Both the position numbers and the translations under genes were made by a program. Under the pieces are notes generated by a model. That model had not been told where the DNA came from, ran no database searches, and saw nothing but the letters and a program-made list of their open reading frames with translations. Shown piece after piece: positions 1-24,448 of a stretch of 64,000 nt of DNA. Source of the DNA: Bilabrum cf. latius (taxonomy: Eukaryota); the NCBI GenBank assembly GCA_965178125.1, contig OZ237774.1:434001-498000 (forward strand), written 5' to 3'. The first letter of the stretch is position 1. Every line of letters starts with the position of its first letter.

Positions 1-8
1 ACTATAAA

Positions 9-500
9 ATGTCAGTCTCAAATCTTCTATCTAAGAACAGTCTAGACCTTATGTCTCAAACTATTACGTGTAATGTTGTGAGTAGCGACGCAATTAAAGT
101 GTCCGCAATTACTAACTCTACGGGAGCAGTCATAGGCAATCCAAGTATTGAATTCAAAGACGGAGAGCCTTATATGGAGTGGGGTGAAACTGTTCTACGG
201 TTTGGAAAAAACGGAGCGTCTGCTGGTTGTCAGTTCAGTATGAGCGAAGAAGGAGAAAGATGCGATATTTCACTAGTTGGTTCATTCAAGACTTCTCAAG
301 AGGGTGTTGTTGGGCTGAGTGAGGTTGCTGGAGCTACATTGGCTGACGCTTCTACCCCTATTAATACGTCAGCAGAGCGAAAGTTCAAGGGCGCTTTAGT
401 GTATAATGGAAGCGACAACGATGTCTATGTGGCGATTGGCAGTTCTTCTACATCTAGTTGGAAATCCTTAGTGTCAGGTTCACTTATTACACCATCTTAA
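9..500 (+). CDS. Virophage hypothetical protein (163 aa; Gly/Ser-rich, possibly fibre/structural)
   Basis: Clean ORF ending TAA, preceded by CTATAAA like other viral genes; sits directly upstream of the penton. Function is a guess. Confidence 0.6.
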   Translation: MSVSNLLSKNSLDLMSQTITCNVVSSDAIKVSAITNSTGAVIGNPSIEFKDGEPYMEWGETVLRFGKNGASAGCQFSMSEEGERCDISLVGSFKTSQEGVVGLSEVAGATLADASTPINTSAERKFKGALVYNGSDNDVYVAIGSSSTSSWKSLVSGSLITPS

Positions 501-556
501 TTATACTTTAGAAAAGTAATCAAACCCACCCCATAATTATAAACGTCTATAGTAAA

Positions 557-1672
557 ATGAGTTCTCCAGACCGATTTTACATTACCGCAAACATACGAAA
601 TAACGAAGATACTTTCCAACCAGCGACCTATAGCGAAACCCGCAAGTAGCCATTATTAGATAAGGATGTTGGTGATTATACGATGTCAGTATTCCGGTTT
701 TCCATAAGCACCAATTCAATACCTTTATGGGTTCCACACATAGAAACCGATAAAGTGAAAAATCCATCTTCAAATCCTAATCAAACGGTGTATAGAATAA
801 GCATTACAGATGAAGACGGAGTAAGTTTGTGGACCTCAAGCATTCAGTGGAGACCCTAGTTAACAGGGGAAAACCAACCATCTTTTTCCAATCCTATGTA
901 GTTTGTTCCTTATTATTATATGTATTCCGTGTAGCATTTTGTTGATTTATTCAACGAAACCATATAGAATGCTTTATCAGCGGATATTACATCAGTTCCG
1001 GTTTTACTCTTTAAAGATGGAAAGTTCAGTTTAGTAGCAAACCCCGATTACGACGAGGAAAACTCAGGACAGAAATTTAAATTAGTGTTGAATGAAGCCC
1101 TTAACGAACTGATGACGGGTTTTCCTATGGAACGAATGGATATCCAAGATGACGACTTATACGCCAGTATTCTATTCAAAACCCTAGGAACCAATGTTTT
1201 ATTCGATGATGGCTCTTCTGTTGGAAAATATGAACCTTAGGCATACTTCGAGGGAAACCCAACGGGAGACTACAGATTAATGATGACCTAGGAACGAGGG
1301 AGTTTAGTGTAGTTTTAGATTTTTCGCGGAATAGTTTTCACATCTTCAAGTCTTCCAGTGAGGAGTGAGGCAATATCCTAGAAATCCGCCTATGGACAAT
1401 CCACTAATACAGTTCAAAATTCAGGTTCAGGGACCGAGAGTTTATTAGTGGATATGGATTGTGTATTAGATGATACTGAAACAGTTAATTAGCAGGTTCT
1501 TCAATACCAGCCCCATATTCTCCACGAAATTGATTTTTTAGATACACATTCAGTAGATAGGATTTAGTTTAATCTATATTGGAAAGACAATTATTCAAAT
1601 CTAAGACCTCTTTATTTACGCCACGGAAGTGTGAGTGTGAAGTTTTTATTTAAGAAACGGAAAGGACTTTGA
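557..1672 (+). CDS. Virophage minor capsid protein (penton), 371 aa with 12 TAG=Gln
   Basis: Manual translation is open from ATG557 to TGA1670-1672 if TAG is sense. Motifs ETRK*PLL..DYTMSVFRFSI..IPLWVP, YYYMYSV*HFVDLFN, IVFTSSSLPVRSE, LYWKD and C-terminal SVKFLFKK are typical of virophage pentons. Confidence 0.88.
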
Positions 1673-1691
1673 AAAAATGATAATTCGTCGG

Positions 1692-1709
1692 ATGGGGACG
1701 CGACCCCAT
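1692..1709 (+). other. Short GC-rich hairpin between penton and MCP (possible 3'-end/polyadenylation signal)
   Basis: ATGGGG-ACGCGA-CCCCAT inverted repeat 20 nt after the penton stop. Confidence 0.35.
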
Positions 1710-1750
1710 AGAATTTTATTCGTTGTATATAATATACAAGGAAAACAAAA

Positions 1751-3517
1751 ATGTCATTGAATACATTTGCCCTTCAGCCAGTCAAAGTATCTCCCGCAAC
1801 ATTAGACGTACAACCAAAGCCTTATGAAGTTCAAGAAGGTTATGAGAACCGAACGTTTCGCAGATACGCTCCATCTGGTTCAGCCGGTAATTATAATTCA
1901 GGTGTGAATTGGAATATTAGTATGCCTTCAGGTGTAGGTTTATGCCGCCGCGCATACGTGTCTTGCCGTTTTTCCATTACCTTTTCCGTGAATAATCAAA
2001 CCGCAGGTGCTCTCGTACCATTTACACCAGATTACGATGCTCCACGCTCATATCCACTTAATCGCTCCATTGCAACACAGACAGTTGGTATCAATAACAT
2101 TCGCTTTACTTAGAATAACGCGGAAATAATGGACGTAGTGTCCCATTGTTTAGATGATGATGTTCATCGTGTGAATTGCCTTGATAGTGTGTATAGACGC
2201 GACAATGTGCCTTCATACGCGATGATGAGTTAGGCTACAAATAACGCTCTTGCTTCGTATGAGGACGTGCTTTAGGACCAACCCGCAAGAGGAAGTGGAT
2301 TTTATAACTTGGTTCAAATGGATAACACTCCAGTGCCCGCAGGTCAAACGCAAAATCGTGTTCTTGTCTTTGAATGTACTGAGGCGGTTCTTTGCCCACC
2401 TTTCCATTACGAAAGTAAATAGGAACAACCAGCCATTTTCGGTTTAGAAACTCTTTCCTTGGATATCAATTGGTCGCAACTGAGTAGAACCGTGTGGTCT
2501 CGTATTCCACAATAGGACTTAACTGCTACCGTTTAGTCGGTAGATGTCCAGAACCCCTATTTATACCTTGAATAGATTACCCCTAAAACAGGGTTTGTCC
2601 TTCCAAAACAGGTATCCTATGATATTTTTGAAATGACTTCATATACTCAAAGCTATGGTGCAACAATCAGCGCAGGAACAACAGCAACTCTTACGAACAA
2701 CAATATTAAACTTAGCAATTCAGTTCCATCTCGTCTATTTGTGTTTGCCCGTCGCTCACCTACCAGCGTCTCAGTAGATTAGGGAAACACATTCCTTGGA
2801 ATTGAGGGAATATCTATTGAGATGAATAACCAAAGTGGATTACTCGCAGATGCTTCACCTCAGTAGCTATGGGACTTATCCAGAAGCAATGGACTTGAAT
2901 AGCAATACGCGGAATGGGCTATGCGTAAATTCGGGGATAGGGTGCTATCAGGCGCAATTCTCTCCATCGACCCCGCCAAGGATTTGAGCCTAGATGTAGA
3001 TTAGACAAATGGAAGCAACGGCTCTAACCAATTGTCTATCACCCTACGAGTGAAGAATAATGATGTTGTAGATTACCAAAATGTGTAGTGTGTGGTTGTG
3101 GGATTGTACGAAGGAGTAATGAATGTGATTGATGGTTCTAAGATTGAGTATTAGCAGGGTGTCATCTCACGGGCAGATGTTCTTTCCGCCTCTAAACTAC
3201 CCGTAGTATATGAAAGTCAATTATCAGGACTACACGGTCGCGGTCTTGGGAAAAAGATTAGACACGCCTTAAAAAAGTTCGCACACAAAACCGCTGATTG
3301 GGTAAAGAAAGGCAATCTCAAAAAAGTATTAAAGGATGGTAAGTAGGTATTTGACACCGCTAAAATGGTGGGTGAAATGGCTGGTATGGGACGCCAAAGG
3401 AAACCCCGAAAAACTACCAAGAAAGGCAAGGGCTTAACAGGTGCCAAGTTGGGTTCTGGATTAACAGGTGGTAAATCTCTCTCTCGCAATCAATTACTCG
3501 CTATGCTCCAAGCTTGA
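1751..3517 (+). CDS. Virophage major capsid protein (double jelly-roll), 588 aa with 14 TAG=Gln
   Basis: Open from ATG1751 to TGA3515-3517 reading TAG as sense. Motifs DAPRSYPLNRSI, NNQSGLLADASPQ*LWDLSRSNG and IDPAKDL, plus a basic Gly-rich C-terminal tail, resemble Sputnik/mavirus MCPs in sequence and length. Confidence 0.92.
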
Positions 3518-3572
3518 GTATGAAAAGGGTAAACCAATAAATATTTGTCTTGGTATATAGTATATCAAAACA

Positions 3573-4190
3573 ATGTCAGTATCATCTGCTGTAATGGTTG
3601 CTGGGACTTTGGCTCCTTTAATGTATTCTGGTAGTCGGTGTCTATATTCTTGGTGGACGAAAGACGGAACTTAGAAACAGAAATCCTGCGTGGTTGTTCC
3701 AAAAGGCTCTGGGAAAACTACTTTGTGTCGCTCTATAGAAAGTGTTGATAAAGACACTTTGGTCATTGACTTAGATGAATGCGTAAATGGTTAGATTTCA
3801 GGGTAGGAAAAATAGAAAATGGAGAAAATGCTAATTGATGGTGATGAAAGCACCCACCGTCTCTTTTATTACTCTTAGTCAAGATTAGTGTATGAAAAAA
3901 TTAAAGCGGATTGGCTCACAAAGAAATCCAGGCGTTTAATTGTTATGGTTGGTTCGTTGGAATTAGCGAAAGATTTATTTAAGGAAAGTTCAATTTTTGT
4001 GTGTGTGCCTTCTCACAGTCTTTTTGAGGAAATCCGTGAAGGGAAAAAATCGGGGGACTTATTGTCTGTAGAACGCTCAAGAACGAATTTAATCGCTGGA
4101 TTACATTAGAGTTAGTACTGTGTCTATTCATCCTTTTAGCAACTGGAGGAATTCGTCCGGAAAACCTTCGGTCTTGGAAGTCGTCTATGA
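3573..4190 (+). CDS. Small P-loop NTPase/kinase-like protein (205 aa)
   Basis: Open with TAG read-through to TGA. Walker-A-like CVVVPKGSGKTT followed by hydrophobic strand LVIDLD. Confidence 0.7.
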
Positions 4191-4215
4191 GTTTTTTAAT
4201 ACAAGCCTATACTAA

Positions 4216-5472
4216 ATGGATAGTTTTTATACACTTAGTGGCGGAAAAATGAATTCTGGTTTTGTTAAGACGTACATTAGTGTCAAAGAACCAAAGAGTA
4301 AAACAACAAGGACATGGAAAAGTGAACATCCTTATTCTAAAGAAGCCCTTGAAAAAGCAATTAAGTTTGAAGATGGTGTGCGAAGCACCCCCTCTCGGCG
4401 CAGTTAGCTGGCGCAACAGCTTAAAGATGGTGTGGGAACAAAAGGAAAACCAAAAAAGAAATCCTAGAAGAAATCCACACAATCCAACACACTTCATTAG
4501 TATTTAAAAGATGGTTTGCGAAGCACCCCCTCTCGGCGCAGTTAGCTGGCGCAACAGCTTAAGGGTGGAGTAGTGTATGGGAATTCAAACGAAGTCCAGA
4601 GAACACTACAGCAATACGGGGATAGAACAATTATAGCTATGAAAGTAATTAGAACCCCCATTAGTGGCGCGATTAATCGGTTGCTTAACTGGATTACCCT
4701 TGGAAAAATGAAAAAGTTAAAAAATAAACACGGATATAATGATTTTTTTCACTTAGCCTTAGAGTTGAACCTTGGAGGTGGAAAAAAGATTTATCTTGAG
4801 AAGAATGAGAGGGTTAATTTGTCCTCAAGATTTTCCACCAACAAGAAAACACAAACTATGGAAGTAAATATTAATGGAAAACCTTAGAAAACAGTAAGGG
4901 AATTATATGAAACCACTTTACAGAAAATAGGAGAATACAATTTTTATTAGTATCGTGCTTTCTCGTTGAATTGTCAAAAGTTCATTTAGGATGTTCTACG
5001 CACAAATGGGTTTTTGACACCACCCTTAAACCAATTTATTATGTAGGATGTAGAGAGTATTGCTAAGAACGTATCGGGATTTACTAAGAGAGTGGCTAAT
5101 GCTGCTACTGATGTGGCTGGGTATTTTTCCAAATGGTTCGGGAGAGGTTTAGATGATTTACCGGAAGATGTAAGAAACGCTTTAAGAAAAAATTAGGAAA
5201 AGCATAAGTAGAACACAGAAAGGGATTTTGGACAAGATTTTAAGGAAGGTTGGGATTTAGCAACTAAAACAGTTGGAAGACCAATTATGAAAGAAATCCA
5301 TTCGCATACGAATGACCCAGTATCGGGTATGTATCTGGAAATATTTGGAGGTCAATGTCAGTGTGAAACAAAACGTTCAAGAGTTATGAAAATGGCGTCC
5401 ATTTTAAGAGGAAAAGGAATATCCAAGAAGACAGCACTTAAGTAGGCTTGGAAAATGTTTGCGTATGATTAA
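4216..5472 (+). CDS. Virophage protein with permuted papain-like (PPPDE/LRAT-type) domain and basic C-terminal motif (418 aa)
   Basis: Open from ATG4216 to TAA5470-5472 with TAG sense. His-before-Cys arrangement FFHLAL...LEKNE...YRAFSLNCQKFI*DVL. Confidence 0.72.
4370..4562 (+). repeat. Two copies of a 55-bp GC-rich hairpin-forming repeat (4370-4424, 4508-4562) inside a viral CDS
   Basis: 54/55 identical; contains TGC-GAA-GCA and AGCTG-GCGCAA-CAGCT hairpins. Confidence 0.85.
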
Positions 5473-5492
5473 TTTATGATTGTGTATAGTAA

Positions 5493-6134
5493 ATGGCGGG
5501 TGTTGATGATTATACCGAAGAACAACTACATTTACTGGCTAGTTAGCCACATCAGAGTTTGGGGAAAGACGCTAGACAAGCACTAGCAATTTTGAAAGGA
5601 TTGAGGAAGCACTAGAGTATAGGGGAAAAGTACGCTAATCGTGTATATGTAAACCCTTAGGAAAGGGAAATGATGGAAATGCTCGCCGAAAAGACCGAAC
5701 AAGAATTTGATACGCTAGGAATTGACAAAGATAGTGATGGTGATTATGACGTGGGTATACTAAAATTCTTATCACCATCACTACACGAGCAACACGACAC
5801 AACACTTGATGATTTTAATTAGGCAATTCATAGAAAATATGCGTCAGAACGGAGAGATACTATGCGTGAATTTTTTGATGCTAGAGAGAAGGGAAATAGT
5901 TAGAAAGAACTATTATCATCGAGATAGGCTAGAGTAATGCGAATGGGTGGTGAAGTGCCTGATTGGGGCTCGAACGAAAGAGCGAAGTAGAGTTTTAAAC
6001 CACAAAAAACTGGAAAAGGGAGGCGCCGTCGGAAAAACCCAAAAGCAAAACTAGCAATGAAAATCGCTCAGTAGTTAAGAGGTAGAGGATATGGGAAAAG
6101 TGATGCTCTAAAAATTGCTTGGTAGAATGTATGA
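5493..6134 (+). CDS. Virophage hypothetical protein with basic C-terminus, possible core/DNA-condensing protein (213 aa)
   Basis: Open ATG5493 to TGA6132-6134 with TAG sense. Ends GKGRRRRKNPKAKLAMKIAQ*LRGRGYGKSDALKIAW. Confidence 0.7.
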
Positions 6135-6175
6135 CTTAAATCTAACTCTATAGTATAATACTATAGAATACAAAA

Positions 6176-6448
6176 ATGACACTCAGTCATTCAGAAAGAA
6201 AAGAACAGGATAAGCTGTATGCCCGTGAATACTACCGGAAAAACAAGGAAAAACTTGGAGAATAGATAAAGTGTTCCTGTGGTGGTGTATATAAGAAGTA
6301 CAATAAATCACATCATTGTAGAACCAAAAAACACCTTGATTGGCTTCAAAAAGAGGAAGACACAAAAAGGGAACAAATTAATATTATGGATGAACTTGAT
6401 AGTTTGCGATAGGAAATTTAGAGACTAAAGGAAAAGCAGACTATTTAA
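6176..6448 (+). CDS. Small Zn-finger/coiled-coil protein (90 aa)
   Basis: REYYRKNKEK...IKCSCGG...KSHHCRTKKH motif (CxC...H...H) of the kind common in large DNA viruses and virophages; ends TAA. Confidence 0.72.
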
Positions 6449-6449
6449 T

Positions 6450-8291
6450 TCAATCTTTTCTAAAAATTTTCTTCTTACTGTGAATAATTTGACATTCACC
6501 TGATTGCTCCAACTTCATACCCCCAAGGTTCGTTGATAACTTTAGAGGTAATTCTTTCTCACTAATGAAACCATCCGTGTTGACATAGTGAATGTTTTCA
6601 AGATATGGCTCAATCATTTTGGACAATTTACTTCGTCCAAGTCCAGTCAGAAAGGGGCCCATTCTTGCGTAGGCTGTTTTGTAATCGTACTCTTCGTCAT
6701 ATAGTATACCCGATACAAGTCGTCCAGATGCTTTAGGATACGCGTTCTTTAATTGTCTAAAATTCATACAATCACCATCTCGGAGTGTTTTTGTGATTGT
6801 GTTTTTCTAACATAGAGAACCCCAAATATTATTTAGTATCTCCTTCGCACACTTCAATCCCTATTTTTTATAACCGTACAATCGCTCAATCATCGTTTTG
6901 AACAGTCCATTTGCCTTCACCCTTGTTGTCTCATCGTAAAGTAAAGCGTTGGCTTCACCGTCTTCAATCAGAGACACCTAAGCGCCCGTCTCAATCGCTC
7001 GGTTAATGTCATATTGGGTATAATAATTGTTTTTTCTTTTTTGTACCAATTTAGAATTGATATTTTCAATATGTACCCTAAAAATGCCGTACGGATAGAA
7101 ACCACTTGAAGGTACTTCAAATTTTACGAACTTACCCCTTCTAACCGGAAATGTAAATGTACCCTTCATAATACTTGGATAAAATGAGTTAATATCGTAC
7201 TGGTATGCGTTTTTTAATGTAGTATTCTTGTTTGCCCAATTCAATCCACCACCCGAGGCTTTAGAAATCCATAGTGCTTCAACTTGGTCAATCGGGTCGG
7301 CAGGGTAAAGTTTGGAAAACTTACTGAAATACGACTTTACAAATAGGGATGTTCTAAACATAAATCGTGATAAATCCATATATCCACCCGTCTCCTTCGC
7401 TAATGCCCTTACATTTTTCATCCGTTCTTCGTGTTTTGTTCTTAGTTCTTCCTTGGACTTGACTTCAAAGATGAATTTATCCTTGGAAACTGATGTAATG
7501 CCTTCTGATTGATACTCACGGTCTCCATCAAATAGTAAATAAGAATTCTCGGATTGATACAAGCGGGTAATTAGCGTACACGGTTCTTTAGACGGCGGTG
7601 TAAATAATTCTTTCTAACTAATGGGGGGAACATACTTGTAATGCCCATTTGTTAATGAAACAGTTAGAAGACGGTCAAAATGAGTTTTTCCAGATGTGTA
7701 TTCAAAGTCGCCTACAACATGAATGCGTACTTGAAGTTCGTCTTCTATCTCTGGTATTCTTCTGTAATCAACGGGGTCATCACGTCCAATTTTCAAGAGT
7801 TCTTTGAGGTCGGACTTCGACAATCTTTTAATAGTAGTTTTCCATTTGCCTTTTGCGCTCTTTACATTTACCTTACGACCAACTGAAAAAGGAAAAGCCT
7901 GTTTTATAGCGTTATATAAACAATCGTTATGTTCGTCAGCACCGCCTTCTGGTTCTGGCTTTCTAATAAGCAGTAGTTCAAAAGAATTCAATTTTCTATA
8001 TTCGTCGTCATCGTCGTCTTCGTAGCCCGCCCATAAACTATCTTGATTTTCTAAATCATCTGTAGTAATCCAAGTGCTTCGTGTTCGCCAACCTGTATCT
8101 TGGTAATTGATATTCACCTTAAATTTAAAGTCATCAAACGGATTTTCACCACCATCGTCGTAATCACGAATAAATTCCAAGACATTTTTTACGGTGATAA
8201 GGTCCTCGCTCTCAAATCGCATACTCCATATTGGTTTCCCATTAAGACGCAATTTGGTTCTTTGGGGTTCCGTAAAATCGATTTCGGGCAT
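6450..8291 (-). CDS. Compact B-family (protein-primed-type) DNA polymerase, 613 aa
   Basis: Three same-frame ORF pieces joined across TAGs. Motif A YDINSFYPSIM, motif B KEILNNIWGSL, motif C YVNTDG. N-terminal NDCLYNAI...NGHY is OTU-like. Confidence 0.85.
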
Positions 8292-8310
8292 TCTATAGTA
8301 TCTATTATAT

Positions 8311-8342
8311 TATAGAATACGATAATTATTCTTAAGGTACGA
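8311..8342 (-). promoter_or_regulatory. Putative promoter upstream of PolB
   Basis: TCGTACCTTAAG-N8-TCGTATTCTATA on the - strand; 29/32 identical to the element upstream of the helicase. Confidence 0.65.
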
Positions 8343-8348
8343 ACTCAC

Positions 8349-10010
8349 TCACTTCTCAATTTTACAGAGGAATTTGGAAAGTTTTCCTTTTTTGTTCTTT
8401 GGTGGGTTCTCTTTTATCCATTTTTGAATAGCGATGCTATTCTCAACACTCAGCTGTTTCTGGATTTTCTTATGGACTTGTTCCGTCGGTGTAATCTCCT
8501 TTTCTAATTCCAACTATTCAATCGTTTCCTACTGCTATGCGACTTGTTTCTGTAGTTCTCTAATCTACTCTCGAAGAACATCTACCTCGGATTTTGCTTT
8601 TTCCATCTCAGCAGAATGACGAAGTGCCTAAAATTTAGATTGGAAGCCTTTTAGTAAGTCTGCGTGTTTCACATTAAATTCTTGTTTTCTCTATTTGTTC
8701 ATCGTTGAATGAACACCTACCTCTGACAATAGTGTTTTAATCATAGGTGTACCAAGGTTCTTCACTCTACCGTTCAGTTCCTGCTTTAGATAATTGCGGA
8801 ATTCCAAGACTGTCATTTTAAAATCTCTGCCTTCGTCCAGCCACTCTTCTTTTAGAATTTTTAAAACCGGATGTGCGCCATCAAGAATTCCTTTGTAAAA
8901 ATTCTTTGATTTTGGTGCGAATTGTCCTGTAAAGTCTGGTGATTTATCATAGATTTCAACCAATAACATATAAAATGCCTTAGCCACTTCTGGATTTTCT
9001 GTAAAACGTTTTAGTGTTGTAAAGTATTCTTTGTCTCCTTTCTTTGATGTATTCACATCCAAAACACAATATCTACGGATTTCCTCGGTGATTTTGATTG
9101 GACTATCATTCGTATCAATAATTAGATTGAATGTATTCGGACGACTTTCGGATTTGACAAACTTCTCATTACAGGAAAAGTGTTTTTCCGTAATAAGATT
9201 TCTTAGTGTTGCCTACATGGCGTCCCAAATAGTTGGCGAGGCTTTTGGAATTTCATTAAAATTGACTAATAGTTTCCCGTCCAGAATTGAGTTGAAGGCG
9301 TCGGGTTGAAGCATCTTGTGTGTAAGCGTCTATAGTGTAAGGGTATATCCGAGTAGTTTTCTCATAAGGAAGGTAATAATCATCGATTTACCAGTTCCTT
9401 GTGGAGATTTCAAATATAGTGCTGTTCCCAACTTCTTTCCGCCCACAATAACGTGAGCCAACCATTTCATCACAAAATCACACTATTCTTTGTCTTCTGA
9501 AGTCCACACCTTCTGGATATGTTCATAAATCATAGTCGCGCCTGCTTTTGCGTCTTCGGATAAATCCTCTATGTTTCCACAGTTTTCCCGTGTAAGTATA
9601 GGTGAACCCATAACGTTAATTGTTTGATTGTCGTAATCCACGGTAGGTGAATTAAATTTTCTTACAATCGTAAATACGTCGGTATTCTCATTTAAGAACC
9701 AGTCTCGTGCTGACCAAGTCTTTACTCTTTTGTTGCCCACAATCGCGTAAATACAGTGTCCCCCAATCAGGTAATTTTCAGTAATATTTTTATTCGTAAG
9801 GAACTACCAGACTGGTTTCTGGGGTTCGTCATCACTTATGTTATTCCGATTTAATTCAGATGCTATTAGAAAATACACCCCGCCACCTTGCTCGTGGGTG
9901 CGGTAGAAGTATTGTCTAAGGTATTGAATACATTCCTCTTGTTTTCCGGCATTACATAGGTCCATAAGGCTTTTTGACGAATACGCTTTAGTCGGCAGAG
10001 TGAATGACAT
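8349..10010 (-). CDS. Superfamily-3 (D5-like) helicase, 553 aa
   Basis: Open with TAG sense to TGA8349. Walker A ALYLKSPQGTGKS, Walker B LLVNFNE, motif C LIIDTN, arginine finger IRRY, and a C-terminal coiled coil. Confidence 0.88.
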
Positions 10011-10024
10011 TTTTGTTGTTGTAC

Positions 10025-10056
10025 TATAGAATACGAAAATAATCCTTAAGGTACGA
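10025..10056 (-). promoter_or_regulatory. Putative promoter upstream of helicase
   Basis: Second copy of the 32-bp motif found upstream of PolB. Confidence 0.65.
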
Positions 10057-10067
10057 TACGGGGCATC

Positions 10068-11123
10068 TCAATTTTCTATATCCCACTCCAAAATTAAATT
10101 AGGAGCAATTTCTTGGATTTTATTCTTTGGTTCCCACGTCCAATGTTCTGGTTCTGGAAAATCTTTCCATTCTATTTGATATTCTGTTTCGTTCTCGGAT
10201 TTTATTTTTTTTGGCAGAAAGATTGTCTGAGCATCTCGGTTATTGTCCTCATTATCAAAGTCGATAATCTGTAATTCCTCTTTTGGATAAGCCACTAAAT
10301 CATCCTAATCCACAACATATAAGGGTGGTTGTCTCGGTCTTAGTAATACTTTAGTTATCGTTTTGATTTCTGGATTATAGCGTAAATCTGAAGCACGAAA
10401 ATTTCCGGATAATTTTTGCTGTAAATTTGTAGCCTTTCTGGGTTCTTCTAATGGTATACGAACTCTTGTACCCTCTTCCAATATATTACAAGCGTCTCCT
10501 TTACACTACGTAAAGTCGAAGTGTTCTGGGGGTAAAGGTGGTTCTTCTATATACTTTTCTAGTTGATATTCATTATAGTTTTCAATGATGTTTGGAAGCA
10601 TATCCACCCATTCTACGCTTTCATTACCTGTATTTAACTCATTAACGTTCTATAGGGTAAATATGGCTTTTCCCAACGTTTTATTTAGGTTTTCCACTAA
10701 TGCTTGTTGTCGGTGGCGACCTGCTTTATTTCTTCGTACAAATACATCGCTCTCTTCTAAATATCTTTGTAAAGCGTTAAATTCTTTTCCATTATCTATT
10801 TCCAAACGGTGCTGCGGTTTCTGGACATTACCACGATTGAAAATCTTTTTTGATGCCTTTAATACTTCGTTCTAACGCTTGGTTTTGAGCGGTTCAGCAT
10901 CGGCCTACTTTGTATGTAAATCAATAGCAGTTAATGCGTATTTATAATTATTGTCGTGGGGTAATGATAATAAATCCATTTGTACCACTTGGTGAGGTTC
11001 TGGTACATTTACGTGGGGTCGATTTACTCCTTTGGGTCGTTTTGGTCGTTTCATTAAATTTACAATACGACTGTTGGGATAAATGTTTAGGGATTGTAAT
11101 ATTCTTTCAAAGGCGCTACTCAT
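10068..11123 (-). CDS. Retroviral-type (rve) DDE integrase with C-terminal chromodomain, 351 aa
   Basis: Open with TAG sense. Intact D-D-E: QMDLL, EIDNGKEF, ALVENLNKTL. Chromo-like EYQIEWKDFPEPEHWTWEP. Confidence 0.9.
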
Positions 11124-11269
11124 TTGCTATATAGTTCTTTAATAGAGGTATGCTTTTCCTTGCTTAATTTTAATATTTCTTTGTATCCTATATTGTCAAA
11201 ATTTTTCAATCAATTTTTGTGTTTTTAATTGGAAAACAATTATAATTTGTTTTTTATTTTCCTTTTAAT

Positions 11270-11867
11270 GTATCATCTCTTGGGTAATCGGTTTGGTTGC
11301 TTCGGAGAACAATTTAGTCGCTTGGGAAATCCTTGGGAAATCCAATCTTTGAAAAAGATATCAAAAGAGCGGAGGGCAAAGCCCGAGCATCTTGGGAAAT
11401 CCTTGGTCGGTTCATCGGTCGGTTTATCGGTTTGTCGCTTGGGAACATACCTCGGTCTCTTGATAAAATACCTTGTTCTCTTGGGGAAATCCTCGGTTGG
11501 TCTCTTGGTCTCTTGGGAATTCATCCTTCCGTTCCTACAGCAAACACAGAGATATTTTGGACACTTGGTTAATTTCTTCATTTTTTCCTACTTTACTAAA
11601 ACATCTCTGTCTTTGCTGTTAGAGTTTATAAGGGGGTTAAATATTAGAATTCTTCAATTTACCCCTACTTCGTAGGAGTAAATTTTATATCTGAAAATGG
11701 GTACATAGAGGGGTTCTATAGGGGTTCTTGGGGAACCCCCTGTGAAATCATTTAGGTTTATAGGGGAAACACTTGAGTTGCTAAATATGCCTTTAAAGGA
11801 GGGGCGAGCGTAGCGTAGCCCTCGTCCTAAACGCTTGGTGTACCTACCACCACCTGTTGTCCCCCCC
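11270..11867. repeat. Probable terminal (TIR) region with CTTGGGAA(AT) iterations and GC hairpins
   Basis: About 7 CTTGGG(A/T/G)A-type copies and TCGGT repeats in 11277-11520. GGGGTTC...GAACCCC inverted repeat near 11720-11739, and an AGGAGGGGC...GCCCTCGTCCT imperfect stem at about 11797-11828. Confidence 0.55.
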
Positions 11868-12507
11868 TGAACCTCGCCCTGCGTTGGAGTTCTAGACCCA
11901 CGAATCAGCCGGGCCTGATCCCAAGTCTTACCGACTTCACACGATCAGATAAGGAACCATGAAACCGCCGGCGCACCTGTCGTGCTGCAGGGACACGATT
12001 CTCTTTGGTGCACGGCAGACACCTGGATCACACATCCGGCACCACACGGATCCGATCTCGAACACAGTCACTCATGTTGCAGTTGGCTCCTCTTAGAGCC
12101 CACCTTCAAAGTTGCTAGATCTAAAGTATTGTAGTGAAATAGTAGAGATTGCACAGTTGAGAAAGCATGGGTTGGAAGTTTTATAACCTTATCTTGGAAA
12201 CGCCTGCCTCTCAGTTTCGAACCCCGCCGTCATGAAACCCCCAAACACATCCTTGACACCGGCCACTGCCGTTTAGCCTTGCAGGAAGCAAGCCCAAGCG
12301 AAAGTACTAGGAACAGCGGCAACAGAGGATCTGGGCGAGACGCATCTAAGTGTCATATTACGCTTGGCCACGTCAACAAAATCGGATCCGATTGACAGAG
12401 TATGGATCCCGTCCATCCGAATCCTTCACTACGACCACTCATATTTTATCACCTACAAAACTACCCGGATACCCCAGCTCCAACCATCGACCCCTCTTCC
12501 TCCGTCA

Positions 12508-13938
12508 TCACGGCAGCTCAACTACACCGAACGCGATCGAGTCAGGCACGAAGATCGGCTGCACCACATCCGCCCGCTCGAATATGACCCCCACGGCCCC
12601 GCCCGGCAAGCCCACCAGCGCGCTGTAGGCACTGGCTCCCGGGTCCAGTACCCGCAGGGGCTCCCATGTCTCGCCCCTGTCCCCCGACCGAGACAGCGTG
12701 AGGTTCTGCCGGAGACCCAGGAGGCTGTCGTCGCTGAGGCTGGACAGGAGCAGTTGTTCCCTGGGCTCGTCCCACAGGATGGAGCCTTCCACGCCGTCAA
12801 GGGGCTGCGGCAGTCCGGGTTGCAGCTCGAGGTTCGTGAAGGTTCGTCCGCCGTCCTCGCTGCTGGCCTGGGAGCGGGAGAGCGCGAGGGTGCGGGCCGC
12901 GAGGACGAGTGTGCCTGCCGCTGGGCCGCTGGTTTCCCCGCTGCTGCTTTGTGGCGAGTGCTGCCTGCCAGCAGCTGGGATGTGTGCCAGCTGGCACTCG
13001 TTGGAGAACCACGGGTCGGTTTCGTTGGTCCACTCGAACGCGATGCTCCAGGTGATGCCCCCGTCGTCTGACGCGACGATGTGCGGGTGCGTGAAGGTGC
13101 CGTCCAGCCAGTGCACGGGGCTGTGATAACCGGGAAGCAGGATCCTGTACGGGGAATCGCTAGTCCCGGAGGCTTTAAGCCAGCCGGCTCTTGCGGGCGC
13201 TGTCCCTTGCTATGGGATGGGAGAAGGAAAAACTGACTAGGCGGGAACGACGAGGCCGCCCGGGGGTCCCAATCCGTACCATCCCCAGCCAGGCCTGGAG
13301 GCCTGGTCGGTGATGTCCCGCGGGGGATTCGCGAACGTTCGTCCGCCGTCGTCCGAGTGGGTCACCATCACGCGGCTGTTGTTCACGCAGAACGGAACCA
13401 AGAGGCGCCGCGCATCCGGAAGCCAGACTGGTGCCGCGTTGCCGACGACCGAGGGGCCCTCCGCATGCACCACCGTGGGGGCCTCGGACCAGGACTTGCC
13501 GCCGTCTGTGGAACGCTTGGACACGAGGTGCGTGGGGGCGTAATCGGAGCAGCTGCCCAGGCGGGCCTCCCCGAAGGCGACGAGCACCACATCGGCTGCT
13601 CGGTCCGCAAACTGCTCCGCGCCCGCCGATGCCGGTACGCGCACAATGTCTGGTATTTTAATGCAAAAGTAGCCTGCCTCGCCCTTGCGGAACACGTCCA
13701 CAGCTGCGATGCCGGTCCCGTTCGCAAACGGCGACGCTTGGAGACTTGGGTACTCGGCCGGTGCTAAGTGCTCAGGCTGGTGCCTGCGCCGATCGCGTGG
13801 GAGCCTATCTGAAATCGAATTCTTGAAGTTATGGTGCTGATGTTTAGCCTTGCTGAACGCGCGCGCAGATGCCATGATCAAGGCCAGTGAGATACATGCC
13901 GCTAGCTTGCGCTGCGGCAGCCCGTACGAGCACACCAT
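12508..13938 (-). CDS. Secreted sialidase/neuraminidase (GH33, BNR repeats), 476 aa
   Basis: Two same-frame ORFs joined through 2 TAGs. Five Asp-boxes (STDGGKSW, SDDGGRTF, SDDGGITW, SEDGGRTF, SGDRGETW), CIKIP (FRIP-like), SAYSAL, and a hydrophobic N-terminus. Confidence 0.88.
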
Positions 13939-14457
13939 AATAACTGGTAGCTCTCCAGGAGGAGCAGTGTATAGATCTCAGGGGTCTGAGTATCAGCGCA
14001 GCGAATCGCAAAACGTTGTAGAGAAGCCACTTGTATAGATTAGGTCGTAGTTGCAGTTCGGCGTGTTATAGCGTGTGGTTTTGGTGGCATCTCTCCGGTT
14101 TTGCAAGAAGCGAGCAGCAGCAGGGCGATGTTCGTGAGTCGGGACATTCGTCTGCCGTGCGCCAGAACCAATTCACAGCGTCTGATCGATGAAATCGCTA
14201 CTAATGTACCCATGAATCTCTCGTTGACTTGAATTGACTGCTTGGAAATCGCCGTGCGCCAGGAATCGCTAGGTCGGCCACGTCACGAACAAAGCTGTTG
14301 CAATTGAAAACTTGCAAGTACTGGCAGCGGTCCGCGAGGAAATAGTAGCCATCTTTAACGTTGGATTTCGCCAGAGCCGAGTTGCCCCAAGTCAGTTGGC
14401 TGTCTAGGTCCGACTAATTCGTCCGTTGGCTTCGCCGTCGTCGGCGATACACGAAAC

Positions 14458-21427: not shown

Positions 21428-21631
21428 ACCGTATGTGTACTGCAGGCGATTCTTGCCGCTGATTAACGAACGTTGGGACCACAGATAGCAGTAGTTTCAG
21501 TACCAAGCGCCGCTTCCCTCTATGGTTCCGCAGTGCCGAGTTGTCGTGCGCGGCGCCACTGCGGAGGAAACTGCAGCATCTTTGCGACGTGGAGGCCTGT
21601 ATTCTCATTGCATTGGTTTGGTTCTCATCTA

Positions 21632-24448
21632 ATGCAGGCGACACGACGAACATTATTTGCAGCAGGACAGAGAATACTTTATGGAACGAAGAGGGGTGTG
21701 TCAGTCCTGCATTCTAAGTTTGCTACGTCATCTGCCTGTCGGCACGCTCAGAGAGGCAACGCAGGTTACCATGCGCCTAGCTTGCAGGCATTCGGATACA
21801 GAAGCAGTCTTAGACGAGGTGTGTTTGGCGCAGCAAGCTGTAAAGCGAGGAGATTGCCCGCAAAAGCCAGCTGCAAATGTACTGCCACGGGAGCTAGTTA
21901 TTCCAGCAGCCCAGCAGCACATAGCGGTGAACCTAGGCAACACGAGTGGAATAATTGGTTGATGCAGGAAACAGATCCTTCACCGCGCTCGGCCGTACCG
22001 ATAAAGAGGCGAGCAGGTGCCCGGTCCTTTAGCTCGTCAGCTGTAGGATCAAAGCGAAGCAGCCGCACGCACTGGTCCGCCTTAGCTGGTTCACAGTTAA
22101 TGCAGAGCTCCCGCCCGAATGGATTGTGTGCGGTCCAGTCGCTTAGCGGTCGCATGGGTGCTCGCTTGCCTGCACCGATCTCGATTTCGATCTCGTCTCA
22201 CCAGCAGCGGCGGCACGGCTCCACCAAGCCGAGCACCAGTGCGAGCTCGTCGGCCGGTGTGACGAGCGGTAGCAGGCCCGATGATGGTTCGGGCGTTGTG
22301 ACGAGTATCCGTGGGGTGGGACCGTTCGGCCCCGGTGGGGAGGGCCGGGCGGTGGTCGAGGGCGCGGATGACGAGCAGCCCGGCCTGCCCGGAGCCATTG
22401 CCCAGGCGTTCCGTGGGGTGTTCTTCCAGCAGAGGGATGAAGATACAAACAAAAGGCAGCGGAACGGGCACTCAGCTGACAGCTGGAGTGCGACGGGTAG
22501 CGTTGGGAGCATCGGGGGTGAGAGCGGCGAAGCAGAGGCGCCAGAAGGCAAGCAGGACGACCAGGCGAAGAAGAGCAAGCAGAGCCCCTGGCAGCGGCTG
22601 ATGACCATCGTGAAAACCGGCAAGCTCCCCGCCGACGACACCGAGGATGACACGTCCGCGGAGCAGGGAACAAGGGAGGCTGACAACCTGGACGAGAGGA
22701 CACTCGAAGCCAGGAGGGGAGCCACCCTCAGGAGGATGGCGGAGTTCGCCTGGCCCGAGAGGCATCGCATTGCGGTGGCGGTGTCCACCCTGGGTGTGAC
22801 GACTACGATCTCGCTTGTGTTCCCCTGGGCCCTGGGCAAGATCCTGGACGTCGCCCTGCAGCCGGATCCTTAGTTCACCCCCGGGACGATCGCGGCCGGT
22901 ATGCTGGGGCTGTTCGCCGTGCAGGTGGGGCTGATCGTGGTGCGGTCCGCGATGCTGTCGGTGGCCGGCGAGCGGATCGCCGCGAGCGTGAGGAAGGACA
23001 CCTTCCGCGCACTCGTCACACAGGAGGTCTCGTACTTCGACGCGCGCCGGACGGGGGACCTGATGAACAGGCTCTCCTCGGACACGGTGGTGGTGCAGAA
23101 GGCGCTCACATCCAACGTGGCGCAGATGCTGCGGAACGGCTTCATGTCGGTCGGCGCCGCCGGGATGCTGTTCACCCTTTCACCCCAGCTGGCGGCTCTG
23201 AGTCTTTGCCTCATCCCGCCCGTGGCACTGGGTGGGATTGGTTTCGGGAGGTACGTGAGGAGGCAGCAGGGGCGCGTGCAGGAGGAGCTGGGCAGAACAC
23301 TCGAAGTGGCTGGGGAACTGCTGTCCCATCTCAGGACCGTGCGGCACTTCGCCTCTGAGGGAAGGGAACTGGGGAGGTTCAGTGCGGCAGTGGAGAGAGC
23401 CTTCGAATAGGGAAGGAGGGTGGGTGTGGCGCAGGCCGCGTTCGACGGCGCGGTGCATTTGGCGGTCGATCTGTCGCTTCTTGCCGTGCTGTTTTATGGT
23501 GGCACTCTGGTGCAGGAAGGGAGCCTTTCGGCGGGTGACCTCACTGCATTCCTGATGTACTCTTTGTACGCTGGTGGCAATCTGGCGGGGCTGTCCTCTG
23601 TGTATGCAGAGCTGATGAAGGGTGTGGGTGCCTCTCGCCGAATCATTGAGGTGGCAGACAGGAAGCCGGCGCTGCCGCTCACCGGTGGTGTGGTGCTGCC
23701 ATCCGTGGCGGGCGAGGTGGAGTTCAGGGGCGTCTCCTTCGCGTATCCGTAGAGGTAGGACGTTCAGGTGCTTGACGGGATGGACCTCGTCCTGGGGGCG
23801 GGGGAATCCATCAGCCTCGTGGGGGGCTCCGGATCGGGCAAGTCCACGGTGGGCTCTCTGCTCACCGGGCTGTACGTGCCGGATGAGGGTCAGGTGCTGC
23901 TGGACGGGAAGGACATCGCGACTCTGGACCCCTCATGGATGCGTGGCAGTGCCATCGGGGTGGTGCAGCAAGAGCCCGTGCTGTTCTCCGGGTCCATCGG
24001 GTCCAATATACTGTACGGGCGACCCTCGGCCACTGAGGCTGACGTCAGGAGGGCAGCGGCGGAGGCGAACGCGGCCGAGTTCATAGAGGCTTTGCCCCTC
24101 GGGTATGACACTCCCGTGGGGGAGAGGGGCATGCAGCTGTCGGGGGGGCAGAGGGCGCGAGTGGCGATCGCTAGGCTTCTGCTTAAGGCCCCCCCCGTGG
24201 CCGTGCTCGACGAAGCCACCGCGGCCCTGGATGCAAACTCCGAGAAGGCTGTTTCGGAGGCTTTGCTGAGGGCGATGGAGGGCAGGACGGTGCTGCAGAT
24301 CGCGCACCGGCTGTCCACCATCCGGCACGCGAAGGAGGCTGCAGTGCTGGAGGACGGGCGGGTGGCGGAGCGTGGGCCGGTGGACGAGCTGCTTCGGAGG
24401 GAGGAGGGCGTGTTTAGGCGGCTGGTGCAGCAGCAGATGGTGGGCTGA
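21632..24448 (+). CDS. Mitochondrial ABCB half-transporter (ABCB10/MDL1-like), 938 aa
   Basis: Four ORF pieces in one frame joined by TAGs (22871, 23408, 23750, 23756). TMD RTGDLMNRLSSDT, Walker A GGSGSGKS, signature LSGGQ, Walker B VLDEAT, and an Arg-rich presequence. Confidence 0.9.

What the first reader, a model, noticed from the sequence alone, without database searches (positions are those of the whole stretch)
1..11867. Endogenous virophage recoded to its host's variant genetic code (UAG=Gln)
Seen: all identified viral genes except the first ORF contain in-frame TAGs (14 in MCP, 12 in penton) yet no internal TAA/TGA. Catalytic motifs are intact, and TAGs fall where Gln fits the virophage motifs (PQ*LWDLS, YSV*HF, MT*E). 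Known: mavirus-like virophages integrate via rve integrase, depend on a giant virus for transcription and on the host for translation, and can defend the host. Inference: this is an apparently intact provirophage locked to a recoded protist. That predicts a helper giant virus that also avoids UAG stops, i.e. a tripartite system on a non-standard code that standard ORF calling would miss.
Basis: partly seen in the sequence, partly recalled or inferred. Interest (0 to 1): 0.95.

Follow-up and report, generated by a model that had tools for sequence, protein, structure and literature searches.

The report
Virophage provirus using UAG for glutamine
The first 11.9 kb of the window is part of a virophage (a small virus that parasitises giant viruses) joined to the DNA of a GC-rich eukaryote. 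Virophage and host both read the stop codon TAG as an amino acid, so ordinary gene finders break these genes into pieces.

Summary
Window 1-11867 (38% GC) holds ten ORFs that are open only if TAG is sense: 76 in-frame TAG and no in-frame TAA or TGA in 3,565 codons. They encode a Sputnik-type major capsid protein and penton, a protein-primed DNA polymerase, a D5-like primase-helicase and an rve integrase with a chromodomain.

TAG means glutamine. In alignments with six metagenomic relatives that are recoded too, TAG pairs with CAA/CAG 123 times and with TAG 102 times out of 440. The same test assigned 61 of 61 sense codons correctly.

The 60-70% GC flank is eukaryotic, and its own genes carry in-frame TAG inside conserved domains. 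Which residue the host inserts could not be resolved from its four informative sites.

Variant copies differ mostly by synonymous changes, so the family is under purifying selection.

Still open:
- The left end, packaging ATPase and protease lie outside the window.
- No independent contig was seen crossing 11867.
- The helper giant virus is untested.

A precedent exists: Polinton-like elements of Streblomastix use their host's code 6 (PMC10120064). I rate this a new variant of a known kind.

The parts
3..500 (+). orf1 (ATG at 9, 163 aa, stop TAA), possible short fibre-like protein; the frame is open to the window start
   Evidence: It has no TAG and only 3 Gln codons. Its first ~20 residues align with the N-termini of the 347- and 381-aa proteins of L001 and L003; the rest does not align. 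No Pfam family.
557..1672 (+). Penton (minor capsid) protein, 371 aa, 12 TAG, stop TGA
   Evidence: Pfam PF21507 Sputnik V18/19, E 1.1e-10. PDB 3j26_N Sputnik minor virion protein, E 1.7e-13. 51-53% identical to L001, L002, L003 and L006. TAG and CAA/CAG interchange at conserved columns.
1751..3517 (+). Major capsid protein, 588 aa, 14 TAG, stop TGA
   Evidence: Pfam PF21915 (1.9e-22) and PF22031 (2.2e-27). PDB Sputnik V20 5.4e-29, mavirus MCP 1.6e-08. 2,264 library proteins at E<=1e-3. 45-64% identical to six metagenome loci.
3573..4190 (+). Small P-loop protein, 205 aa, 8 TAG, stop TGA; function unknown
   Evidence: Only a weak AAA_24 hit (E 0.004, below cutoff). A GSGKT Walker A motif is read by eye. 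Conserved at 51-55% just after the MCP gene in L001, L002, L004 and L006. PDB search uninformative.
4216..5472 (+). p418, 418 aa, 11 TAG, stop TAA; unknown function, with an internal ~18-codon repeat
   Evidence: No family. 43% identical to a 306-aa ORF of L002 and L006. A 54-base in-frame length variant at 4369-4424 is present in runs X3 and X6.
5493..6134 (+). p213, 213 aa, 9 TAG, stop TGA; unknown function
   Evidence: No family. Only its C-terminal 28 residues match L002 and L006. One low-depth contig of X6 skips 5469-6134.
   Evidence: Translation. Preceded by CTATAGTATAATACTATAG at 6148-6166.
6450..8291 (-). Protein-primed family B DNA polymerase, 613 aa, 4 TAG, stop TGA
   Evidence: PHROG DNA polymerase families, 2.4e-13 and 2.4e-10. 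Pfam PF03175 scores 24.7 bits, just under its 25.8 cutoff. The stretches YDINSFYPS, KEILNNIWG and YVNTDG are conserved in L001 and L003; reading them as motifs A, B and C is from recall. A 100% identical 613-aa protein lies on a 13,062-base ENA contig.
8349..10010 (-). D5-like superfamily 3 primase-helicase, 553 aa, 10 TAG, stop TGA
   Evidence: Pfam DUF5906 3.3e-15 and VapE-like 1.4e-05. PHROG DNA primase 4.1e-19. 56% identical to L003.
10068..11123 (-). rve integrase with C-terminal chromodomain, 351 aa, 5 TAG, stop TGA
   Evidence: Pfam rve 3.8e-09 and Chromo 6e-06. D, D and E with 35-residue spacing read by eye from the translation. 55% identical to L003 and 47% to L001.
11124..11867 (.). 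Non-coding right terminal region with TCTTGGGAAATCC-type direct repeats (11273-11534); element end at 11867
   Evidence: Repeats. In run X5 one contig ends at 11867 and another runs on from 11867 into unlike 60% GC sequence. No match in the host part of the window or in L001-L006.
547..554 (+). Promoter-like motif CTATAGTA just upstream of the penton start; the same motif is at 5484-5491, 6148-6155, 6159-6166, 8293-8300 and 10022-10029
   Evidence: BTATAGTA has 6 matches in the 64 kb, all in intergenic DNA of the element. 0.83 are expected, and 0 of 100 shuffles reach 6. TATAGTA or CTATAG lies within 45 nt upstream of 23 of 38 genes in the window element, L001, L003 and L006.
12508..13977 (-). 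Host gene for a BNR/sialidase-like protein, with 2 in-frame TAG (13237-13239, 13210-13212), stop TGA
   Evidence: Pfam BNR Asp-box at aa 155-164 and BNR_2 at aa 278-463 fall in one frame on either side of the TAGs. Coordinates. X5 contig 12371-14019 is colinear with no gap.
21467..24448 (+). Host gene for an ABCB10-like half transporter, with 4 in-frame TAG in the conserved part (22670-24445), stop TGA
   Evidence: Pfam ABC_membrane 4.2e-53 and ABC_tran 9.1e-30. PDB ABCB10 E 4.4e-142. In-frame stops are 0 TAA, 4 TAG, 0 TGA, against 2-17 TGA in each other frame.

Best explanation
Window 1-11867 is the right-hand 11.9 kb of a virophage genome joined to the nuclear DNA of a GC-rich, intron-bearing eukaryote. 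The full genome is probably 15-18 kb, judged from relatives' contigs. In that cell UAG is decoded as an amino acid, while UAA and UAG's partner UGA still terminate. The virophage writes about 39% of its glutamine codons as TAG, and 47% in the capsid-side genes. It belongs to a clade of TAG=Gln virophages that also occurs in six contigs from five metagenome records.

Shown here: the gene identities, that TAG is sense and stands for Gln in the virophage clade, that TAA and TGA are its stops, that host genes also carry sense TAG, that sequence variants of the element co-exist and differ mainly at synonymous sites, and that a shared TATAGTA/CTATAG motif sits just upstream of most genes.

Inferred: the rve-chromodomain integrase inserted the linear genome into host chromatin. 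The provirus stays quiet until a giant virus infects the cell. The giant virus's transcription machinery then reads the shared promoter-like motif. Host ribosomes translate the mRNAs using a host tRNA-Gln(CUA) and a release factor that ignores UAG; no tRNA gene lies in the element or in the held parts of its relatives. The pPolB and primase-helicase replicate the genome, and MCP plus penton build the capsid.
For: Code:
- 76 in-frame TAG and 0 in-frame TAA or TGA in 3,565 codons; chance about 10^-48.7.
- The ORFs collapse under table 11.

Identity:
- Sputnik-type MCP and penton, pPolB, D5-like helicase, and rve plus chromodomain.

Glutamine:
- Column log-odds over 150 MCP homologues put Q first (+1.7, next H -6.5). 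The same score ranked the true residue first for 52 of 60 sense codons.
- Among the window element and the six related loci there are 151 columns with a TAG, giving 440 pairings: 123 to CAA/CAG, 102 to TAG, and next T and E at 28 each. The log-likelihood for Q is 384 bits above E. The control assigned 61 of 61 sense codons correctly.
- Strictly conserved penton columns alternate between TAG and CAA/CAG.
- One copy variant is CAG>TAG.

Clade:
- All six metagenome loci are open only with TAG as sense. For L001, ORFs of at least 100 aa total 1,049 aa under the standard code and 4,485 aa with TAG sense. They stop at TAA or TGA.
- L001's penton ends in TAA at about the place where the window's ends in TGA.
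- Four of the five closest library MCPs are fragments whose ends fall at the window's TAG positions.

Selection:
- Of the 40 variant rows shown (90 more were not shown), 31 fall in ORFs. 25 are synonymous and 6 are not.
- A 54-base length variant in p418 is in frame.

Host:
- The flank has eukaryotic genes (SWR1/SRCAP, Integrator 3, ABCB10-like, amino-acid transporter).
- Four GT-AG joints appear in contigs of X5, two of them also in X9.
- There are 4 TAG inside the conserved ABCB10-like region and 2 in the BNR gene, with no TAA or TGA in frame.

Integration:
- There is a sharp GC step and an integrase gene next to the end.
- In another study's run, which matches the host flank with 0 differences, the repeat unit ends exactly at 11867 and continues into different GC-rich DNA.

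Promoter-like motif.

No tRNA genes in the window or in L001-L006.
Against: - No listed contig of any of the four runs bridges 11867. Run X3 has no cover at 12007-12673, which the tool says proves nothing.
- The left end is outside the window, so terminal inverted repeats and a target-site duplication could not be checked.
- The packaging ATPase and cysteine protease that define virophages are not in the window. In relatives they are only candidates: weak AAA hits, motifs read by eye, and no significant PDB hit.
- The four informative host TAG sites do not single out Gln (T -0.08, K -0.5, Q -0.85).
- pPolB scores just under Pfam's gathering cutoff.
- Run X6 holds the virophage at low depth without this host locus, which a free virus would also explain.
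- The host lineage is unresolved. The best named matches are 41-62% identical, in green algae, stramenopiles, cryptophytes, animals and chytrids.
Confidence: 0.85

Rival explanations
1. The join at 11867 is an assembly chimera. On this view a free or episomal virophage, abundant in the culture or sample, was fused to a host contig, and there is no provirus at this locus.
For: No listed contig bridges 11867, and the contigs on the element carry higher depth figures than those on the flank; the tool warns that these are not copy numbers. Run X6 holds the element without the host locus. The relatives' metagenome contigs show no GC-rich flanks.
Against: The element encodes an rve integrase with a chromodomain next to this end. 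In run X5, which matches the host flank with 0 differences, the terminal 11391-11867 segment is present and runs on at exactly 11867 into other 60% GC sequence, as a second insertion would. Host and element share a rare code, so they belong to one system in any case.
Confidence: 0.08
2. The virophage, or its giant-virus helper, runs its own TAG recoding, as code-15 phages do, inside a host that uses the standard code.
For: Recoded phages with a code unlike their host's are known (abstract of PMC9523058 in the listing). Some virophages carry tRNA genes, including Gln tRNAs and one ochre suppressor (PMC6905037, passage read). The left part of this element was not seen.
Against: Host genes themselves carry in-frame TAG inside conserved domains: 4 in the ABCB10-like gene and 2 in the BNR gene, with no in-frame TAA or TGA. 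No tRNA gene was found in the window or in any of the six related loci.
Confidence: 0.03
3. TAG stands for a residue other than glutamine (Leu, Tyr, Glu or Lys, as in other variant codes), or is read through at low efficiency.
For: The host's four TAG sites align with G/R/T/A/V, L, T/S and P/K in homologues and do not favour Gln. UAG=Leu and UAG=Tyr codes exist in other protists; this is recalled for the rhizarian exLh, whose paper title and abstract were seen.
Against: Within the virophage clade Q beats every other residue by at least 384 bits, with 61 of 61 control codons correct. TAG and CAA/CAG alternate at invariant penton columns. At 2.1% of codons, inefficient read-through would leave almost no full-length capsid protein; that last point is inference.
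Confidence: 0.02
4. It is a dead, decaying viral fossil whose stops are mutational damage.
For: Many endogenous viral genes in protist assemblies show premature stops (PMC10120064, passage read).
Against: All 76 in-frame stops are TAG (about 10^-48.7 by chance). There are no frameshifts, and the ORFs are full length against relatives. 25 of 31 coding differences between copies are synonymous. Six independent relatives show the same pattern.
Confidence: 0.01

Closest known systems
Mavirus and the endogenous mavirus-like elements (EMALEs) of Cafeteria burkhardae (PMC8547959, PMC10945749; titles and abstracts seen)
   Same: A virophage with pPolB and an rve integrase that integrates in a protist nuclear genome. 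It has lower GC than the host, and more than one sequence variant is present (at least two co-exist in run X3).
   Different: Here TAG is a Gln codon. The capsid proteins match Sputnik far better than mavirus (5.4e-29 against 1.6e-08). The promoter-like motif is TATAGTA/CTATAG; the TCTA motif of mavirus and CroV is recalled, not tested. Reactivation and defence of the host are not tested here.
Sputnik virophage capsid (PDB 3j26: V20 and the minor virion protein)
   Same: MCP and penton are homologous over nearly their whole length.
   Different: As I recall it, Sputnik has no pPolB or rve module and uses the standard code; neither point was tested here. Sequence identity to this MCP is low, since even the nearest full-length library homologue is only 32% identical.
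Polinton-like endogenous elements of Streblomastix strix that use the host's table 6 (PMC10120064, passages read)
   Same: An integrated double jelly-roll virus element that follows its host's stop-to-Gln reassignment. There it was taken as a sign of a long virus-host association.
   Different: That case is a Metamonada Polinton-like MCP group with both TAA and TAG reassigned. This one is a Sputnik-type virophage with TAG alone reassigned and TAA kept as a stop. It also has free-standing relatives in six contigs from five metagenome records.
UAG-only nuclear codes (PMC5304391; PMC11687900 listing only)
   Same: UAG is sense while UAA remains a stop. That Iotanema reads UAG as Gln is recalled; the paper's title, abstract and two passages were seen.
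   Different: The host here is a 60-70% GC eukaryote of unresolved lineage. None of those papers' passages that I saw mentions viruses: the word 'virus' occurs 0 times in PMC5304391.
Code-15 (TAG=Gln) bacteriophages such as crAss-like phages (PMC9523058, abstract)
   Same: Viral genes that standard gene callers shatter at TAG, with TAG read as Gln.
   Different: Those phages differ in code from their bacterial hosts, and the code is thought to act as a timing or lysis switch (recalled). Here the code is the host's own, and no suppressor tRNA was found in the element.

Membership tests
Virophages (Sputnik/mavirus-type; class Maveriviricetes) | Virophage-type double jelly-roll major capsid protein | tested here: met
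   PF21915 1.9e-22 and PF22031 2.2e-27; Sputnik V20 5.4e-29.
Virophages (Sputnik/mavirus-type; class Maveriviricetes) | Penton (minor capsid) protein of the V18/19 type | tested here: met
   PF21507 1.1e-10; 3j26_N 1.7e-13.
Virophages (Sputnik/mavirus-type; class Maveriviricetes) | FtsK/HerA-type genome-packaging ATPase | tested here: inconclusive
   None in window 1-11867. The 205-aa P-loop protein has only a sub-threshold AAA_24 hit. Relatives L001 and L003 have a 299/324-aa P-loop ORF near the penton gene with weak AAA_22 hits (3-4e-4, below cutoff) and no significant PDB hit.
Virophages (Sputnik/mavirus-type; class Maveriviricetes) | Adenain-like cysteine protease | tested here: inconclusive
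   None in the window. Relatives have a conserved 175-aa ORF with His, Asp and Cys stretches read by eye. Pfam gave no protease family: nothing for L003's copy, and only a sub-threshold WD40 hit (E 0.00069) for L001's. The PDB hits were repeat-summed artefacts.
Virophages (Sputnik/mavirus-type; class Maveriviricetes) | Replication depends on a co-infecting giant virus | not testable with these tools
   The only indirect sign is one shared promoter-like motif upstream of both replication and capsid genes.
Integrating mavirus/Polinton-type elements | rve (DDE) integrase | tested here: met
   PF00665 3.8e-09 and Chromo 6e-06; DD35E spacing read by eye.
Integrating mavirus/Polinton-type elements | Protein-primed family B DNA polymerase | tested here: met
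   PHROG DNA polymerase 2.4e-13. PF03175 scores 24.7 bits against a 25.8 cutoff. The motif stretches are conserved in relatives.
Integrating mavirus/Polinton-type elements | Terminal inverted repeats and a 5-6 bp target-site duplication | not testable with these tools
   The left end lies outside the window.
UAG-to-Gln genetic code (table 15 pattern) | TAG in frame within conserved genes, while TAA and TGA are absent in frame and end the genes | tested here: met
   Virophage. Relatives. Host ABCB10-like, SWR1 and BNR genes.
UAG-to-Gln genetic code (table 15 pattern) | TAG aligns with Gln in homologues | tested here: met
   Met for the virophage clade. Inconclusive for the host's own four sites.
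UAG-to-Gln genetic code (table 15 pattern) | A tRNA-Gln with anticodon CUA and an eRF1 that no longer reads UAG | not testable with these tools
   No tRNA and no Rfam hit in the 64 kb, and no genome is held.

The most novel reading that the evidence does not exclude
A whole clade of virophages is confined to eukaryotes that read UAG as glutamine. It is present in six contigs from five metagenome records, absent from the IMG/VR scans I ran, and shattered by standard gene callers. Its still unseen giant-virus helpers would have to share that code and would recognise a TATAGTA-type promoter. Writing up to 47% of Gln codons as TAG would then act as a host-range lock for all three partners. The code could also serve as a marker that ties uncultured virophages and giant viruses to a possibly undescribed GC-rich host lineage.
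Probability: 0.4. Interest if true: 0.8.

Novelty: new variant of a known kind. Interest (0 to 1): 0.62.

Why it matters
Virophage-host links are almost never known for uncultured lineages. A shared rare code is a built-in label that ties this virophage clade to UAG=Gln hosts. It gives two concrete search keys for the missing giant virus: TAG as a sense codon, and TATAGTA/CTATAG upstream of its late genes.

It also shows a blind spot. The clade sits in public metagenome contigs, but my two scans of the viral catalogue found none of it. Four of the five closest capsid proteins in a 1.8-billion-protein library are fragments cut at TAG.

Finally, the flank documents a GC-rich eukaryote with UAG as sense and UAA/UGA as stops. 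Its lineage I could not place.

Tried and rejected
- No whole genome is held for the window.
- Protein-pattern scans with the MCP found no relative in viral contigs or in metagenome contigs. A degenerate DNA pattern for the clade motif QLWDLSR.NGLE then found 6 metagenome loci and 0 in viral contigs.
- tblastn of the MCP against the phage collection gave no match.
- PDB sequence searches were uninformative for the P-loop protein, p418, and the candidate protease and ATPase of L003. The TAL-effector and WD40 rows are sums of tiny repeat matches with no significant single stretch.
- RNA: no RNA holder was listed. The contigs of X5 and X9, which carry GT-AG joints, cover the host flank. On the element they cover only the 11391-11867 end plus traces at 7338-8671. 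This says nothing on expression.
- No listed contig bridged 11867, and X3 has a hole at 12007-12673. Neither is evidence either way.
- The host TAG residue is tied among T, K and Q.
- Host lineage could not be resolved from the ABCB10-like and SWR1 searches.
- One row (the amino-acid transporter) was given in the wrong frame and is dropped. Its one open frame has no stop of any kind.
- A literature search for the host motif GTGTGACGAG found only unrelated primer lists.
- Literature searches for a virophage on a variant code found none. The nearest were the Streblomastix case and a suppressor-tRNA remark in PMC6905037. Supplementary files were not seen and may hold more.
- The Halocafeteria preprint was checked as a possible host and rejected: host GC is 47%, and the terms 'genetic code', 'stop codon', 'TAG' and 'UAG' each occur 0 times in its text.

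Full report
**Observation.** Under the bacterial/standard table, window 1-11867 has only short ORFs of 225 aa or less. With TAG read as sense it becomes a tight array of ORFs of 205-613 aa. A further small ORF at 6176-6448 adds three TAG.

Over the ten ORFs there are 76 TAG in 3,565 codons. The other five frames of the same DNA hold 496 TAA, 257 TAG and 371 TGA. All in-frame stops being TAG therefore has a chance of about 10^-48.7. Seven ORFs end in TGA and three in TAA. The first ORF has no TAG but only three Gln codons. GC is 0.37-0.41 up to about 11.7 kb and 0.56-0.71 after 12 kb.

**What the genes are.**

| Coordinates | Strand | Product | Evidence |
|---|---|---|---|
| 557-1672 | + | Penton | PF21507 1.1e-10; Sputnik minor virion protein 1.7e-13 |
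| 1751-3517 | + | Major capsid protein | PF21915 1.9e-22, PF22031 2.2e-27; Sputnik V20 5.4e-29; mavirus MCP 1.6e-08 |
| 3573-4190 | + | 205-aa P-loop protein | Sub-threshold AAA_24 hit only |
| 4216-5472 | + | p418 | No family |
| 5493-6134 | + | p213 | No family |
| 6176-6448 | + | p90 | Translation only |
| 6450-8291 | - | Protein-primed DNA polymerase | PHROG 2.4e-13; Pfam 24.7 bits, just under its 25.8 cutoff |
| 8349-10010 | - | D5-like primase-helicase | DUF5906 3.3e-15; PHROG primase 4.1e-19 |
| 10068-11123 | - | rve integrase with chromodomain | rve 3.8e-09; Chromo 6e-06 |

So the capsid module is Sputnik-like, and the replication and integration module is of the mavirus/Polinton kind. 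The packaging ATPase and the cysteine protease are not in the window.

**TAG is glutamine.** Three independent lines agree.

- Distant homologues. An exhaustive search with the MCP gave 2,264 proteins at E<=1e-3. Over the 150 listed, the summed column log-odds at the 14 TAG sites put Q first (+1.7, next H -6.5). The same score ranked the encoded residue first for 52 of 60 sense codons.
- Recoded relatives. A degenerate DNA pattern for a clade-specific MCP motif found six metagenome contigs with five different record prefixes. They encode MCP, penton, P-loop protein, p418, pPolB, helicase and integrase at 29-64% identity to the window's proteins. Every one of these genes is interrupted by TAG only and ends in TAA or TGA.
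- Pairing test. Across all alignable gene families there are 151 columns with a TAG, giving 440 pairings. TAG pairs with CAA/CAG 123 times and with TAG 102 times, then with T and E 28 times each. Q is 384 bits more likely than the next residue. The same leave-one-out procedure assigned 61 of 61 sense codons correctly.
- Conserved columns and variants. In the penton, invariant columns alternate between TAG and CAA/CAG.

TAA is a true stop. The relatives' genes end in TAA or TGA, and L001's penton ends in TAA at about the place where the window's ends in TGA.

**The host side.** The flank encodes eukaryotic proteins: an SWR1/SRCAP ATPase (6.4e-104 to human SRCAP), Integrator subunit 3, an ABCB10-like half transporter (4.4e-142 to human ABCB10), an amino-acid transporter, and a BNR/sialidase-like protein. 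Contigs of run X5 show four GT-AG joints in the flank, two of them shared with X9, so the genes have ordinary introns.

The conserved 592-codon part of the ABCB10-like gene has 4 TAG in frame and no TAA or TGA, while its other frames hold 2-17 TGA each. A 1,360-codon stretch of the SWR1 gene has 3 TAG, 0 TAA and 0 TGA in frame. The BNR gene has two TAG between two Pfam-matched parts in one frame. A colinear X5 contig covers them. So the host reads TAG as sense.

Which residue the host inserts is not settled by its own four informative sites. T, K and Q are tied, and Q occurs in 3-7 of 120 homologues at three of the four sites. I infer Gln from the virophage, whose proteins must be made on the cell's ribosomes. 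The host lineage is unresolved: the best named matches are 41-62% identical and spread over green algae, stramenopiles, cryptophytes, animals and chytrids.

**Copies, selection and the junction.** Four runs of one study hold about 0.91 of the sampled words of 9000-15000. Two further studies hold about half.

- In X3 at least two sequence variants of the element co-exist. For example, alternate letters at 1765-1816 carry 428 of 771 depth units. The tool warns that depth is not a copy number.
- Of the 40 variant rows shown (90 more were not shown), 31 fall in ORFs. 25 are synonymous and 6 are not. A 54-base length variant in p418 is in frame. This is the signature of purifying selection on TAG-containing reading frames, not of decay.
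- X5 matches the host flank with no differences in the listed pieces. On the element it holds only the terminal 11391-11867 segment and traces. One of its contigs ends at 11867 and another continues from 11867 into different 60% GC sequence. This fixes 11867 as the end of the repeated unit and suggests a second insertion elsewhere.
- X6 holds nearly identical virophage contigs at low depth, without this host locus.

**Promoter-like motif.** Every ORF start is preceded within about 25 nt by a TATA(G/A)TA or CTATAG-like string. BTATAGTA occurs six times in the 64 kb, all in intergenic DNA of the element. 0.83 matches are expected, and 0 of 100 shuffles reach 6. TATAGTA or CTATAG lies within 45 nt upstream of 23 of 38 genes in the window element, L001, L003 and L006 (no shuffle control was run for the relatives).

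One motif in front of both replication and capsid genes is what virophages that borrow a giant virus's late transcription show. That comparison with mavirus and CroV is recalled, not tested.

**What the relatives add.** L001, L003 and L006 carry five more ORFs near the penton gene. In L001 and L003 these lie between the polymerase and the penton:

- a 175-aa protein with His, Asp and Cys stretches, a candidate protease;
- a 299/324-aa P-loop protein, a candidate packaging ATPase;
- a 132/134-aa protein;
- a 462-484-aa protein;
- a 347/381-aa protein (cut at the contig end in L006) whose first ~20 residues match orf1 of the window.

Family and PDB searches did not confirm the first two. These are probably the genes missing to the left of the window. 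Gene order differs among members: the replication module is inverted in the window relative to L003. No tRNA gene is present in the window or in any related locus.

**Rivals.** Decay is excluded by the stop-type statistics, the full-length ORFs and the synonymous bias. A residue other than Gln is excluded for the virophage. A virus-autonomous recoding in a standard-code host is contradicted by the host's own sense TAG codons and by the lack of a suppressor tRNA. A chimeric join cannot be excluded with contigs alone. I give it 0.08 because of the integrase, the second junction at the same base, and the shared code.

**Comparison and novelty.** Integrated virophages with pPolB and rve are known from Cafeteria and other protists (PMC8547959, PMC10945749, PMC10120064). 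That endogenous Polinton-like elements can follow a host's variant code is in print for Streblomastix strix and table 6 (PMC10120064, passages read). A suppressor tRNA in one virophage clade was read as a hint of recoded hosts (PMC6905037). Giant-virus bins that annotate better under alternative codes were reported in 2026 (PMC13524828).

My searches found no report of a Sputnik-type virophage, or a virophage clade, on a UAG-only Gln code. Supplements were not seen. I therefore rate it a new variant of a known kind. It is real and well supported, of solid but not exceptional surprise, and it gives a sharp, testable prediction about the helper virus.

Noticed in passing
window 11868-64000 (e.g. 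15318, 23021, 39651, 53516-54983, 62983-63697): The 10-mer GTGTGACGAG, usually followed by TG, occurs 34 times on both strands of the host part and never in the virophage. About 0.1 would be expected by chance. The flanks are unrelated, so it is not a repeat element. It lies mostly on the sense strand of the long ORFs, where it reads as G-V-T-S or C-D-E. It is not the 5' splice site of the four contig-supported introns. Unexplained.
   Followed up: partly
window 6176-6448 (+): A 90-aa ORF with 3 TAG and a Cys/His pattern (CSCGG...HHC...H) lies between p213 and the polymerase. It is preceded by a palindromic pair of CTATAG motifs.
   Followed up: partly
window 7860-7930 (-), pPolB residues ~118-130: The N-terminal part of the polymerase carries a conserved DEHNDCLYNAIK stretch in the window, L001 and L003. 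It resembles the catalytic Cys motif of OTU-like proteases; that resemblance is recalled and was not tested.
   Followed up: no
window 4369-4424 and 5469-6134: Copy variants in public runs. A 54-base in-frame length difference in the repeat region of p418 appears in X3 and X6. One low-depth X6 contig skips the whole p213 gene.
   Followed up: no
window 11273-11534: The non-coding right end carries about four to five degenerate direct repeats built on TCTTGGGAAATCC and TCGGT units, and a 22-nt inverted repeat at 11537-11619. Run X3's summed contig depth is about twice as high here as on the coding part. That would fit a terminal inverted repeat, but the tool warns that depth cannot rank parts.
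   Followed up: partly
window 15310-15590, 15745-15920 (+); 18203-18386, 18630-19156 (-): Four GT-AG introns of host genes are shown by joined contigs in X5, the last two also in X9. X5 and X9 therefore behave as transcript assemblies, although the tool labels X5 'probably DNA'.
   Followed up: no
protein P0391: A protein 100% identical to the window's 613-aa polymerase, TAG sites read through, is already in the public protein collection from a 13,062-base ENA contig. A 63% relative has 33 member sequences. Some pipelines have therefore already called these genes with a recoded table.
   Followed up: no
window 56376-63998 (+): With TAG as sense, the SWR1/SRCAP gene region reads as one 2,541-codon open frame. 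Long stretches after the ATPase lobe are Gly/Ala-rich and unmatched. They are probably introns or the SWR1 insertion read through, because stops are rare in 65-70% GC DNA. ORF length alone is therefore weak evidence for the code in the host part.
   Followed up: partly
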